From Escherichia coli (GTDB lineage: Bacteria; Pseudomonadota; Gammaproteobacteria; Enterobacterales; Enterobacteriaceae), in assembly GCF_003334765.1 (NCBI RefSeq), contig NZ_QOWT01000018.1: 64,000 nt of DNA. The stretch is one strand, 5' to 3'. Position numbers: made by a program. Shown here piece after piece: positions 3,001-6,000 of the stretch (positions are counted from its first letter, which is position 1; the number at the start of each line of letters is the position of its first letter).

Positions 3001-6000
3001 GGCCCTAAGCCGCCGGAATATTTACAGATTTTATAGCTGTCGAGCAGTTGATATTGCTCGCCCATTTTGACGTAGAGATCGAGCGTACGTTCTTCCTTGA
3101 AGATCTGGATGTAGACAGGGGATCCCATCAACTGCTGCTTATACTCTTTGCTCACAGGCGTGGTAGAGCTACTGCTGCCCAGCAAACCGGCAAATGAAAC
3201 GCACGGGATCAACAACATCGCAAGAATTAATGCGATTTTACGCATACTGCTTATTCCTTGATAAAACGGTTACACACGCCAGGACGGCAAAATGGATCCC
3301 AAATCGGAATAGTCTGGATTTGGAAGGCTCACATTATCACCAAAAGAGTTTTACGCAAGCCTGTCGGCGCAGGGTTTACAAATTTCATCGGAAGCGGGCT
3401 TTACCCAAAGAGCGCCGCGTGAGTTCCAGTTCTCTCAAATCGTAAAAGTTTATCGGTAAGTTTGTAAATCAGGATCCAGTCCGGTTCGACATGAGCATCG
3501 CGATAACCTTTCCATGAACCTTGCAGCGGGTGGTCTTTATAAACAGCTGGAAGCGGTAAAGTATTATTGATAAGAAGCGTCATAAGATATTTCAATTTAT
3601 TCATATCCTTATGACGCTTTTGTGCAAGTTTTACATCCTTTGAATATTGTCCCGAGTATTCAATATCCCTTTGAATCATATTTAAATTCCTAATTTATCA
3701 AATAAATCATCGGCGTCTTTGGCCTTATGAACATCAATGCCAGCTTCGCTGTTTTTGATTGATTGAATGGTTAATTGATTAGGCTCGCGTAAATCAAACG
3801 GCAATGCCTTTTCACGCGCGACCTTTGTGAGGGTTATGCGAACCAGGTCAGAGATGGTCAGCCCCATCCCGGCCAGTACGTCCGCTGCCTGATTCTTCAG
3901 ATCTTCATCGATTCGGGCGCGAACAAACGCGTTAGCAGCCATTGGGGTATCTCCTGTGCTGTATATTTATTCAGCTTGAATTGTAGCTCAAATGAGCAAC
4001 AGCGACAATCCATGAGTAATTTAATAAACGGATGTTTTTACATAATTAACTGAAATATATATGTTAATTTTATAATAATGGTTTATTAAGTTTGTTCAGA
4101 AACGATCCGGGATACACTGCAACATTAAAGCATGACCAGCCATTATTGAGTATGTCCTTGCCGTCGATTCCATCCTTTGTATTGTCGGGATTACTGTTGA
4201 TTTGTTTGCCGTTTTCTTCATTTGCCAGCGCCACCACATCACATATCTCTTTCAGCTACGCCGCCCGCCAGCGGATGCAAAACCGTGCGCGTTTATTAAA
4301 ACAGTACCAAACTCATCTGAAAAAGCAGGCCAGCTATATTGTGGAAGGCAATGCCGAAAGCAAAAGGGCGCTACGCCAGCACAACCGGGAGCAGATAAAA
4401 CAGCATCCAGAATGGTTTCCTGCTCCGCTCAAGGCGAGTGACAGACGCTGGCAGGCGCTGGCGGAAAACAACCACTTTTTAAGCAGCGACCATCTGCATA
4501 ACATTACCGAAGTGGCGATTCACCGCCTGGAGCAGCAGCTTGGCAAGCCTTACGTCTGGGGCGGTACGCGGCCTGATAAAGGCTTTGACTGTAGCGGGTT
4601 GGTTTTTTATGCCTACAACAAGATCCTTGAGGCTAAGCTCCCGCGCACGGCCAATGAGATGTACCACTATCGCCGGGCAACGATTGTGGCGAACAACGAC
4701 CTGCGCCGGGGAGATTTGCTGTTTTTCCATATCCACAGCCGCGAGATAGCCGATCATATGGGCGTGTATTTGGGCGATGGGCAATTTATCGAGTCGCCAC
4801 GTACCGGCGAAACCATTCGGATAAGCCGATTAGCCGAACCTTTCTGGCAGGACCATTTTTTGGGCGCGCGCAGGATTTTGACGGAAGAGACGATTTTGTA
4901 GGACGGATAAGGCGTTTACGCCGCATCCGGCAGTTGTACGCAGGTGCCTGATGCGACGCTGGCGCGTCTTATCATGCCTACGAGCCCGCGAATATTTGCG
5001 AGCCGCTTTCCCGATATAAAACAACCTCATTGCCAACCTTTCCTTTTCTTCTTACCGTTGAGAAAAAGGAGTCGCCATGTCTGAATATCGTCGTTATTAC
5101 ATCAAGGGGGGAACATGGTTTTTCACGGTGAATTTACGAAATCGTCGAAGCCAACTTTTGACCACCCAGTACCAGATGCTCCGTCACGCCATTATTAAAG
5201 TTAAGCGAGACAGGCCTTTTGAAATCAACGCCTGGGTCGTTTTGCCAGAGCATATGCACTGTATCTGGACATTACCTGAAGGCGATGATGATTTTTCCTC
5301 GCGCTGGCGGGAAATTAAAAAGCAATTTACCCATGCTTGTGGATTGAAAAATATCTGGCAACCACGTTTTTGGGAGCACGCCATCCGCAATACCAAAGAT
5401 TATAGGCATCATGTTGATTATATTTATATAAATCCAGTAAAGCATGGTTGGGTAAAGCAAGTGAGTGATTGGCCATTCTCAACGTTCCATCGCGATGTCG
5501 CGCGAGGGTTATATCCCATCGATTGGGCGGGGGACGTAACGGATTTTAGTGCCGGGGAGCGTATCATTTCATAATTGTGCGCAGATGCCTGATGCGACGC
5601 TGGCGCGTCTTATCATGCCTACAAACTTGTGCCGGATCGGTAGGCCGGATAAGGCGTTTATGCCGCATCCGGCAGTTATGCGCAGATGCCTGATGCGACG
5701 CTGGCGCGTCTTATCATGCCTACAAACTTGTGCCTGAACGGTAGGACGGATAAGGCGTTCACGCCGCATCCGGCAGTTGTGCACCAATGCTGGATACTTA
5801 CATCAACGCCCCCATAATCTTCAACTCCAGCTCATCCGGCACTTCGTTATACGACAGCACATGCAGCCCCGGCGCAAACAACCTTGCATAACGCGCCAGC
5901 AAAGGGCGCAGCTGCGGTGGCACCAGCAGCACCGGGTCTTTCCCCGCCGCTTTCATCTGCTCTTTCACCTGTGGCATCGTACTCTGGAACTGGTTGAGCA

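What the first reader, a model, noticed from the sequence alone, without database searches (positions are those of the whole stretch)
4903..5790. rayT flanked by REP clusters, including a tandem duplicated unit
The HuH tyrosine transposase rayT sits between REP units on both sides. The downstream array contains two near-identical consecutive ~100-bp copies, suggesting a recent local duplication of a BIME unit, possibly by RayT activity or replication slippage.
Basis: seen in the sequence. Interest (0 to 1): 0.4.

Follow-up and report, generated by a model that had tools for sequence, protein, structure and literature searches.

The report
E. coli rayT REPtron, already described
This is the well-studied E. 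coli "REPtron": the domesticated transposase gene rayT sits between arrays of the palindromic REP repeats it acts on, and the 101-bp tandem repeat is an ordinary, old and strain-variable two-unit REP array, not a fresh duplication.

Summary
rayT (5077-5574) encodes a protein 100% identical to the crystallised E. coli TnpA-REP (PDB 4ER8). One y-S-z2 REP pair lies upstream (4898-4981). Downstream lies z2-l-y-S-z2-l-y (5587-5774), a 101-bp tandem repeat of 2.0 copies with 6 mismatches and no indels (94%).

The window matches E. coli K-12 MG1655 with one base difference in 4 kb. The whole arrangement was published by Ton-Hoang et al. 2012 (PMC3333891) and Messing et al. 2012 (PMC3479197): one BIME on the left, a variable BIME-2 array on the right, rayT deleted or replaced by hicAB in some strains.

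"Recent duplication" is only partly right:
- The same two-unit array is at least 99% identical in 1,136 complete E. coli records.
- The same structure occurs in strains whose rayT differs by 3%.
- Five of the six differences lie in the last 42 nt of copy 2. That stretch matches the terminal unit of three-unit alleles (1 mismatch), not copy 1 (5 mismatches).
- One strain's copy 2 is an exact chimera of units 2 and 3 of a three-unit allele, joined at a GTGC microhomology, with a 94-nt difference.

This points to unequal exchange. A RayT C|T-to-C|T excision would not reproduce the junction. Already known; low interest.

The parts
4092..4901 (+). yafL (NlpC/P60, C40 peptidase), the left neighbour. 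Its TAG stop codon (4899-4901) lies inside the GTAG box of the left y REP.
   Evidence: ORF list; RefSeq annotation of identical or near-identical loci; sequence.
4898..4931 (+). Left y REP, with 5' GTAG plus an imperfect hairpin. Positions 4898-4929 are exactly the 32-mer co-crystallised with TnpA-REP.
   Evidence: 2 mismatches to the y consensus. DNA hairpin of -8.9 kcal/mol, z = -2.8. The oligonucleotide sequence is quoted in PMC3479197.
4932..4945 (.). S linker (14 nt) between the y REP and the z2 iREP of the left BIME.
   Evidence: 14-nt spacing in every rayT-bearing allele whose left z2 was detected; BIME-2 definition in PMC3333891.
4946..4981 (-). Left z2 REP, read on the - strand (an iREP on the + strand). 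With the y REP it forms the single left-hand BIME-2 unit (a REPIN).
   Evidence: 1 mismatch to the z2 consensus. Hairpin of -9.6 kcal/mol, z = -3.95. The 84-nt y-S-z2 folds as one long structure closed by GTAGG/CCTAC. Rfam naRNA4 scores 73.3 bits at 4901-4978.
4982..5076 (+). 95-nt leader between the left BIME and the rayT start codon. No convincing promoter was found by the consensus scan.
   Evidence: Sequence. The promoter scan found only 2 sites, neither in the leader, against 1.1 expected by chance.
5077..5574 (+). rayT (yafM, tnpA-REP): an HUH/Y1 single-strand DNA endonuclease and strand transferase of 165 aa, with HUH at H59-M60-H61 and the catalytic tyrosine at Y115.
   Evidence: 100% identical to PDB 4ER8. 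NCBIfam NF047646 at 179 bits, cut-off 80. Motifs are conserved in all alleles examined. Annotated as rayT, b0228, in MG1655.
5575..5776 (.). Tandem repeat of two 101-nt units (5575-5675 and 5676-5776). Each unit is S linker, z2 iREP, l linker, y REP.
   Evidence: TRF period 101, 2.0 copies, 94%; the repeat finder family D1; 6 mismatches and no indels.
5587..5622 (-). Right z2 REP number 1. It starts 12 nt after the rayT stop codon. Position 5602 (loop) is G here and A in MG1655.
5640..5673 (+). Right y REP number 1 (GTAGGCCGG...TTTAT variant), preceded by the 17-nt l linker at 5623-5639.
   Evidence: Rfam naRNA4 scores 77 bits at 5643-5720.
5688..5723 (-). Right z2 REP number 2, identical in sequence to the other two z2 REPs at this locus.
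5741..5774 (+). Right y REP number 2 (GTAGGACGG...TTCAC variant). Together with the 3' half of its l linker (5734-5740), it corresponds to the terminal unit of three-unit alleles.
   Evidence: 1 mismatch in 41 nt to L002 unit 3, against 5 mismatches to window unit 1.
5775..5797 (.). Degenerate S linker plus the truncated 5' part of a further iREP (AGTTGTGCACCAATGCTGGATAC), abutting the lfhA' stop codon.
   Evidence: Read directly against the unit start, about 14 of 21 matches by eye. The same tail is present in the other alleles.
5798..7510 (-). lfhA' (fhiA), a 5'-truncated FlhA-like pseudogene of the lateral-flagella (Flag-2) cluster. It is the convergent right-hand neighbour.
   Evidence: MG1655 annotation b0229 at 248358-250070, which maps to window 5798-7510; ORF list.

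Best explanation
This is the Escherichia coli REPtron.

What it is (shown):
- rayT is a single-copy, domesticated HUH/Y1 transposase gene lying between yafL and the lfhA' pseudogene.
- One BIME-2 unit (y REP, S linker, z2 iREP) lies on its left.
- A two-unit BIME-2 array (S-z2-l-y, twice, plus a truncated third start) lies on its right.

What RayT does (shown by others, in vitro):
- It binds a REP hairpin on single-stranded DNA through the 5' GTAG box and a stem mismatch.
- It cuts at nearby C|T dinucleotides and can rejoin strands.
- This is thought to let it maintain and spread REP/BIME elements around the chromosome in trans.

What the 101-bp repeat is:
- It is simply the period of a BIME-2 array.
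- Such arrays gain and lose whole units between strains; I saw 1, 2 and 3 units at this locus (shown).

Inferred history of the array in this window:
1. A z2-type unit was amplified upstream of an older terminal z1-l-y unit, giving a three-unit array as in strains 124 and 639.
2. A 94-nt unequal exchange or replication slip at a GTGC microhomology in the l linkers then fused unit 2 to the terminal y REP.
3. The result is the present two copies.

This happened before the spread of a large clade that includes K-12, so it is old rather than recent (inferred).
For: Identity of the gene:
- RayT is 100% identical to PDB 4ER8.
- It passes the NCBIfam equivalog.
- The locus is identical to MG1655 245500-249500 except one base and is annotated rayT, b0228.
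- The left y REP is the exact oligonucleotide in the crystal.

Anatomy:
- Six REPs alternate in orientation with 14-nt S and 17-nt l linkers.
- Each forms a hairpin.
- The tandem period is 101.

Published description of the same structure (PMC3333891):
- BIME-2 is defined as y plus z2 in multiple tandem copies.
[quoted passage not shown] MG1655...)'.
- Copy number at a locus varies between strains.

My cross-strain check:
- In a spread sample of 22 rayT-bearing records, 17 had the two-unit length, 3 were 94-96 nt longer and 2 were 79 nt shorter.
- Unit maps show 1-3 units built from a z2/z1 mosaic.

Age:
- 1,136 records carry the array at 99% identity or better.
- The same structural type occurs in L021 and L022, whose rayT differs from the window by 16 and 15 of 498 nt.

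Hybrid copy 2:
- Five of the 6 differences lie in the 3' 42 nt.
- The 3' 41 nt of window unit 2 have 1 mismatch to L002 unit 3 and 5 to window unit 1.
- L022 unit 2 equals L002 unit 2 (first 60 nt) plus L002 unit 3 (last 45 nt), overlapping in GTGC. The length difference of 94 nt equals the length of unit 3.
- A z1-l-y(GTAGGACGG) unit is the sole unit in the divergent strain L012, which suggests it is the older element.
Against: - The direction of the event is inferred from only a handful of alleles. It could equally be a 94-nt insertion of a y-S-z1 BIME into a two-unit array rather than a three-to-two deletion.
- The clustering of differences in the 3' part of the unit is not significant on its own (Fisher p = 0.08).
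- Gene conversion between units, or recombination between strains, could blur which units correspond across strains.
- The window's own unit 2 differs from the exact L022 chimera at 4 positions.
- RayT involvement in the original amplification step cannot be excluded. No in vivo activity has been shown for E. coli RayT in the papers read.
- Only about 20 alleles were inspected base by base, out of 5,426 genomes.
Confidence: 0.85

Rival explanations
1. A recent, strain-level tandem duplication of one BIME unit by replication slippage. A one-unit array is flanked by S-linker and iREP-start direct repeats, which could mispair and duplicate exactly one 101-nt unit.
For: - The repeat is exactly head to tail with no indels.
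- One-unit alleles exist, in O157:H7 and strain AF10.
- The tail at 5775-5797 repeats the S linker and iREP start, giving roughly 20 nt of direct homology.
- The two units are more alike (94%) than either is to the BIME-2 unit 4 kb away (83%).
Against: - The same array is at least 99% identical in 1,136 records.
- It is shared by lineages whose rayT differs by 3%.
- There are 6 differences per 101 nt, and 5 of them sit where copy 2 matches a different, older unit.
- The existing one-unit alleles carry different linkers or iREP types and are not the window's precursor.
Confidence: 0.05
2. RayT itself built the array. It would cleave at an iREP or linker C|T site, the 3'-OH would be extended, and strand transfer to a second C|T site would add a BIME unit (the Ton-Hoang 2012 Fig. 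7B/C models). Proximity to the gene would favour action in cis.
For: - In vitro, TnpA-REP cleaves and recombines BIMEs from this very REPtron and can assemble tandem copies (PMC3333891; PMC8266576).
- C|T dinucleotides are present in both l linkers and in the iREPs on the + strand, at 5626, 5727 and 5734 among others.
- The right-hand array next to rayT is polymorphic.
Against: - For the one event whose junction can be read, L002 against L022, a C|T-to-C|T excision on the + strand removes 95 nt and predicts GTGCTGAAC. The observed junction is GTGCCTGAAC with a 94-nt difference.
- By direct reading of the complement, neither junction has a CT on the - strand.
- RayT is a monomer with no obvious way to coordinate two cleavages (PMC3479197).
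- No in vivo activity is reported in the papers read.
- Alleles that lack rayT (CFT073) or carry a rayT pseudogene (O157:H7) still hold arrays.
Confidence: 0.2
3. The array is kept for what it does as RNA or DNA, not for how it arose. Placed between the convergent genes rayT and lfhA', it would act as a 3'-UTR element, as a partial terminator or mRNA stabiliser or as an naRNA4-like transcript. Unit number would then be tuned by selection.
For: - The y-S-z2 units score above the Rfam gathering threshold for naRNA4: 77 and 73 bits against 59.5.
- The first iREP starts 12 nt after the rayT stop codon.
- REP325, a BIME-2 array, acts as a partly Rho-dependent terminator and as an mRNA stabiliser. 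REPs between convergent genes correlate with higher expression of both genes (bioRxiv 10.64898/2026.03.23.713779, abstract).
Against: - No expression data are available here.
- The consensus scan found no intrinsic terminator.
- Unit number and composition vary freely among strains, and one neighbour is a pseudogene in K-12. That argues against strong selection on a particular number.
Confidence: 0.3

Closest known systems
E. coli MG1655 REPtron (tnpA-REP / rayT / yafM, b0228, with flanking BIMEs); Ton-Hoang et al. 2012 NAR (PMC3333891), Messing et al. 2012 NAR (PMC3479197), Nunvar et al. 2010 (PMC2817692)
   Same: It is effectively the same object. The protein is identical to 4ER8. The DNA is identical to MG1655 over 4,001 nt except one base. 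The neighbours are the same (yafL, lfhA'), with one BIME on the left and two on the right.
   Different: There is a single base difference, 5602 G in the window against A in MG1655 (248162), in the loop of the first right-hand z2. The window therefore comes from a very close relative; it is 100% identical to strain H3 over 1,501 nt.
BIME-2 family of bacterial interspersed mosaic elements (Gilson/Bachellier/Hofnung classification, as summarised in PMC3333891)
   Same: It has y and z2 REPs in alternating orientation, a short S linker, a longer l-type linker, multiple tandem copies, and a copy number that differs between strains.
   Different: None of substance. Some alleles of this array in other strains mix in a z1-like iREP, which would make them 'atypical BIMEs'.
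REPIN-RAYT systems (Bertels and Rainey 2011, PMC3116915; bioRxiv 10.1101/2021.07.10.451892)
   Same: There is a single-copy, vertically inherited RAYT with flanking REP doublets. The y-S-z2 doublet folds as one long hairpin. rayT has been lost in some E. coli strains.
   Different: E. coli RayT belongs to group 2, and its REPs come in three classes (y, z1, z2). The REPIN framework stresses doublets as the replicating unit, not tandem arrays.
IS200/IS605 family insertion sequences (TnpA Y1 transposases with subterminal hairpins)
   Same: Both have HUH/Y1 chemistry, a gene bracketed by hairpins, a 5' tetranucleotide guide-like box, and single-strand DNA substrates.
   Different: The REPtron is not mobile as a unit and sits at one fixed locus. 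RayT is a monomer and recognises its cleavage site differently. The Pfam Y1_Tnp match is only E = 0.082.
naRNA4 / REP325 (Rfam RF02564)
   Same: The y-S-z2 units at 4901-4978 and 5643-5720 score 73 and 77 bits, above the gathering score of 59.5. REP325 is another BIME-2 array.
   Different: It is a different locus (yjdM-yjdN). Transcription of the rayT-flanking units as discrete RNAs was not tested. The proposed nucleoid-compaction role of naRNA4 is now disputed.

Membership tests
RAYT / TnpA-REP (REP-associated tyrosine transposase) | HUH motif and a single catalytic tyrosine (Y1) in the conserved arrangement. | tested here: met
   H59-M60-H61 and Y115 (HHVDYIYINP) are present in the window and in all 12 other alleles. 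The residues named in the crystal paper (R21, R78, K82, Q95, R97, W99, E161) are at those positions in the translation.
RAYT / TnpA-REP (REP-associated tyrosine transposase) | Sequence membership in the curated family, or identity to a characterised member. | tested here: met
   NCBIfam equivalog NF047646 at 179 bits against a cut-off of 80. 165/165 identity to PDB 4ER8.
RAYT / TnpA-REP (REP-associated tyrosine transposase) | Flanked by its cognate REPs, which carry a 5' GTAG box. | tested here: met
   Two REPs upstream and four downstream, all with GTAG (CTAC on the opposite strand).
RAYT / TnpA-REP (REP-associated tyrosine transposase) | Single copy at a fixed chromosomal locus; not itself mobile. 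| tested here: met
   tblastn finds only one copy in the 64-kb window. Every rayT hit inspected in E. coli genomes lies between yafL and flhA/lfhA. The whole genome of the window's own strain was not scanned. The literature reports a single locus in 74 of 110 genomes.
RAYT / TnpA-REP (REP-associated tyrosine transposase) | Binds single-stranded REP DNA and cleaves or rejoins at C|T. | not testable with these tools
   Shown in vitro by others for the identical protein (PMC3333891, PMC3479197, PMC8266576).
BIME-2 | Composed of y and z2 REPs in alternating (inverse) orientation. | tested here: met
   The order is y>, z2<, rayT, z2<, y>, z2<, y>, each with 1-2 mismatches to its consensus.
BIME-2 | A short S linker within the pair and s, l or r flanking linkers. 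| tested here: met
   14-nt S linkers (4932-4945, 5674-5687) and 17-nt linkers (5623-5639, 5724-5740). I did not compare the 17-nt linkers with the published l and r consensus sequences, so calling them 'l' rests on length.
BIME-2 | Occurs as multiple tandem copies whose number varies between strains. | tested here: met
   2.0 copies of period 101 here. Other strains have 1, 2 or 3 units.
IS200/IS605 insertion sequences | A Y1_Tnp (PF01797) transposase domain at family threshold, and mobility of the whole unit in multiple copies. | tested here: not met
   Pfam Y1_Tnp gives only E = 0.082, 13.5 bits. There is one copy at a fixed locus. It is related in mechanism but is not a member.
Rfam naRNA4 (RF02564) | Covariance-model score above the gathering threshold. 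| tested here: met
   77.0 bits at 5643-5720 and 73.3 bits at 4901-4978, against a threshold of 59.5.
Rfam naRNA4 (RF02564) | Expressed as a discrete HU-binding RNA. | not testable with these tools
   No expression data are available. The function of the founding member is disputed.

The most novel reading that the evidence does not exclude
The REPtron sits in a short island of about 2.5 kb (roughly window 4500-7000) where nucleotide divergence between E. coli lineages is 3-5 times that of the flanks. Divergence there is 7-11%, against 0.2-3% outside. Within rayT, dS is 0.24-0.39 and dN/dS is about 0.1.

The most novel reading not excluded is that REP hairpins and/or RayT nicking raise the local mutation rate around the gene. 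The alternative is that very old alternative haplotypes at this site (rayT, hicAB, empty) are maintained and exchanged by recombination. I found no statement of this divergence peak in the papers I read.
Probability: 0.12. Interest if true: 0.45.

Novelty: already known. Interest (0 to 1): 0.08.

Why it matters
It matters little as a discovery. The locus is the model system for REP-associated transposases, with a crystal structure, in vitro biochemistry and a comparative analysis of 110 genomes already published.

The check is useful mainly as a correction. A tandem repeat of 94% identity inside a REP array should not be read as a recent duplication, because REP family members are already about 92-94% alike and array units are shuffled by unequal exchange.

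The one new detail is a base-exact junction (GTGC microhomology, 94 nt) linking three-unit and two-unit alleles. It fits homology-driven exchange and does not fit a simple RayT C|T-to-C|T excision. That is a small data point on the open question of whether RayT or host recombination drives changes in BIME copy number.

Tried and rejected
- **Inverted-repeat search.** The repeat finder returned 0 inverted pairs at this locus, because the REP stems are short and imperfect. I located REPs by consensus scanning and folding instead.
- **First scripts.** One search was an incomplete script and computed nothing. A regex best-match scan then missed two y REPs, so I replaced it with a sliding mismatch count.
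- **Pfam.** Only a sub-threshold Y1_Tnp hit, E = 0.082. Membership was settled with NCBIfam and PDB identity.
- **Promoter and terminator scan of 4800-5900.** It gave 2 promoter-like sites against 1.1 expected and no terminator. It says nothing useful about rayT expression.
- **Hit H116.** It looked like an independent locus with a two-unit array 92% identical to this one. It is the same locus with an ISEc31 insertion in place of rayT, so I rejected it as a between-locus comparison. Other unannotated loci match the array at only 81-87%.
- **K-12 records at 98.8%.** This is an artefact of the tool joining the left-hand BIME match into the same 'place'. The true difference from K-12 is one base.
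- **Clustering of differences.** I tested whether the 6 differences cluster significantly in the 3' part of the unit. Fisher p = 0.08, suggestive only.
- **RayT excision between the two C|T sites bracketing the 94-nt segment.** It predicts a 95-nt loss and the wrong junction.
- **Divergence script.** My first version failed because one FASTA file held several loci. I re-ran it per record.
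Full report
**Observation**

The region was read directly and its ORFs listed. 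A 165-aa ORF at 5077-5574 (+) lies between yafL (4092-4901, +) and a convergent FlhA-like ORF that ends at 5798 (-).

Consensus scanning finds six REPs:
- y at 4898-4931 (+)
- z2 at 4946-4981 (-)
- z2 at 5587-5622 (-)
- y at 5640-5673 (+)
- z2 at 5688-5723 (-)
- y at 5741-5774 (+)

Each has 1-2 mismatches to its consensus. Each folds as a DNA hairpin better than nearly all shuffles (z = -2.8 to -4.0).

Tandem Repeats Finder reports 5578-5782 with period 101, 2.0 copies, 94% matches, no indels and a score of 368. The repeat finder places the copies at 5575-5675 and 5676-5776. The exact alignment has 6 mismatches, at 5577, 5634, 5637, 5645, 5659 and 5661.

Six of the 11 REPs in the 64-kb window lie within 877 nt around rayT. 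The only correction is that the left REP starts at 4898, where its GTAG overlaps the yafL stop codon.

**What it is**

- The protein is 165/165 identical to PDB 4ER8, 'TnpArep'.
- It passes the NCBIfam equivalog NF047646 at 179 bits against a cut-off of 80.
- Pfam Y1_Tnp is only marginal, at E = 0.082.
- The HUH triad (H59-M60-H61) and Y115 are present.
- The 4,001 nt around the gene are identical to E. coli K-12 MG1655 245500-249500 except for one base: 5602 is G in the window and A in MG1655. There the gene is annotated rayT, b0228, between yafL and the lfhA pseudogene.
- The left y REP (4898-4929) is exactly the 32-mer co-crystallised with the enzyme (PMC3479197).

The spacing is y-14-z2 on the left and z2-17-y-14-z2-17-y on the right. 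That is the BIME-2 architecture of y and z2 REPs, an S linker and longer flanking linkers in multiple tandem copies, as defined in PMC3333891. The 84-nt y-S-z2 doublet folds into one long structure closed by GTAGG/CCTAC. It also scores above the gathering threshold for Rfam naRNA4, the REP325-derived family, at 73 and 77 bits against 59.5.

**Already published**

Ton-Hoang et al. [quoted passage not shown] They report that:
- tnpA-REP lies at a unique position between yafL and fhiA;
[quoted passage not shown] MG1655, APEC01, ED1a and O157:H7)';
- seven B2 strains, such as CFT073, lost the gene but kept the BIMEs;
- 24 strains, mostly B1, carry hicA and hicB in place of the gene and its BIMEs;

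They also showed in vitro that the enzyme binds single-stranded REPs through the GTAG box, cleaves at C|T and recombines BIMEs from this very REPtron. They proposed RayT-based amplification models.

My searches of 5,426 complete E. coli genomes reproduce this picture:
- 2,976 genomes hold most of the 1,501-nt locus.
- The other allele classes are hicAB and BIME-only.
- Among 22 spread-sampled rayT-bearing records, 17 have the two-unit length, 3 are 94-96 nt longer and 2 are 79 nt shorter.
- Unit maps show 1-3 units built from z2-type and z1-like iREPs.

**Is it a recent duplication?**

Three lines of evidence say no.

1. *Family-level similarity is already high.* Within this window, the REP-plus-S portion of unrelated BIME-2 units differs at only 5-7 of 84 positions. 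Full units at another locus 4 kb away are 83% identical to either copy. The 94% between neighbours does indicate local relatedness, but not recency.

2. *The array is widespread.* The 261-nt query spanning it is at least 99% identical in 1,136 records. The same structural type, with the same y-REP variants in units 1 and 2, occurs in strains PSS-12 and AW1.7, whose rayT differs from the window by 16 and 15 of 498 nt.

3. *Copy 2 is a hybrid.* Five of the six differences lie in its last 42 nt (Fisher p = 0.08 on its own). That stretch has 1 mismatch to the terminal unit (unit 3) of the three-unit allele of strain 124, against 5 mismatches to the window's own copy 1. The first 58 nt of copy 2 differ from copy 1 at a single position. 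In strain AW1.7 the relation is exact: its unit 2 equals the first 60 nt of strain-124 unit 2 plus the last 45 nt of strain-124 unit 3, overlapping in GTGC. The 94-nt length difference equals the length of unit 3.

A z1-l-y(GTAGGACGG) unit is also the only unit in the divergent strain AF10, which suggests that the terminal unit is the older element.

The most economical history is therefore amplification of a z2 unit upstream of an older terminal unit, followed by a 94-nt unequal exchange or slip at GTGC. All of this would predate the clade that contains K-12. The reverse direction, insertion of a y-S-z1 BIME, is not excluded.

**Mechanism**

For the one junction that can be read, a RayT excision between the two flanking C|T sites on the + strand would remove 95 nt and give GTGCTGAAC. 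The observed junction is GTGCCTGAAC. By direct reading of the complement, neither junction has a CT on the - strand. Microhomology-mediated or unit-homology exchange fits; a simple RayT event does not.

This is a single event and says nothing about how the z2 unit was first amplified. No in vivo RayT activity in E. coli is reported in the papers I read. A mobilome study found no circular BIME DNA (bioRxiv 10.1101/2024.07.17.603846).

A functional role for the array as a 3'-UTR terminator or stabiliser between convergent genes is plausible by analogy with REP325 (bioRxiv 10.64898/2026.03.23.713779, abstract). It was not tested here, and the consensus terminator scan found nothing.

**Side observations**

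- The locus is a local peak of divergence. Window 4500-7000 is 7-11% diverged from an ST131 strain and from strain 2018-05-2CC, against 0.2-3% in the flanking bins.
- rayT alleles differ by up to 52 of 498 nt, with dS 0.24-0.39 and dN/dS 0.07-0.16. The gene is under purifying selection but has unusually deep allelic lineages.
- In strain ChlosBP-23-1, rayT is gone and a single y-S-z2 doublet sits between yafL and flhA'. The TAGs of its two GTAG boxes serve as the stop codons of both convergent genes.

**Verdict**

The object is the already-described E. coli REPtron with an ordinary BIME-2 array. The novelty class is 'already known' and the interest is low.

Noticed in passing
window 4500-7000, compared with L018 and L019: There is a local peak of nucleotide divergence. 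This stretch is 7-11% diverged from ST131 strain E302 and from strain 2018-05-2CC, while the flanking 500-nt bins are 0.2-3%. rayT alleles differ by up to 52 of 498 nt, with dS 0.24-0.39 and dN/dS 0.07-0.16. I found no statement of this in the papers read.
   Followed up: partly
window 4898-4901 and 5572-5587: The yafL stop codon TAG is the last three bases of the GTAG box of the left y REP. The rayT stop codon is only 12 nt from the first downstream z2 iREP. From memory, REPs very close to stop codons have been reported to reduce translation of the upstream gene; I did not check that here.
   Followed up: no
L008 599-682 (strain ChlosBP-23-1): This is a rayT-less allele in which one y-S-z2 doublet lies between yafL and flhA'. 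The TAGs of its two GTAG boxes act as the stop codons of both convergent genes. The deletion endpoint is exactly at the end of the left z2 REP (CTAC|ATCAAC).
   Followed up: partly
L009 659-1286 (strain YF-1) and many other records: The hicAB toxin-antitoxin genes replace rayT and all its BIMEs between yafL and flhA' in roughly a third of the spread-sampled genomes. This was already reported for B1 strains in PMC3333891.
   Followed up: yes
window 5602: This is the only difference from MG1655 in 4,001 nt: G in the window against A in MG1655 (248162), in the loop of the first right-hand z2 REP. Most other strains have G, so the K-12 base looks derived. The window is 100% identical to strain H3 over 1,501 nt.
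   Followed up: yes
window 1569-1703 and 63916-63995: There are two other REP clusters in the window: a BIME-2 (y-S-z2-l-y) at 1569-1703, and a y and z1 pair at the far right edge.
   Followed up: partly
window 3401-3942: The dinJ-yafQ toxin-antitoxin pair lies just upstream of yafL. It is absent at the corresponding position in the ST131 strain E302.
   Followed up: no
L003 778-1275 and L013 548-1045 (O157:H7 and O55:H7): rayT is annotated as a pseudogene with an internal stop in these lineages. The right-hand array has one unit in O157:H7 and a z1 plus z2 pair in O55:H7.
   Followed up: partly
L010 (BL21(DE3)), array downstream of rayT: In BL21, the first right-hand unit has lost 31 nt, removing most of the y REP (z2-34-z2 spacing). 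A complete z2 iREP abuts the flhA' stop codon. This is a further structural variant of the array.
   Followed up: no
L016 1-1111 (strain GN04592): An ISEc31 (IS3-family) element lies immediately upstream of the right-hand BIME array, in place of rayT. This fits published reports that BIMEs are IS targets and that IS-mediated rearrangements occur at this locus.
   Followed up: no
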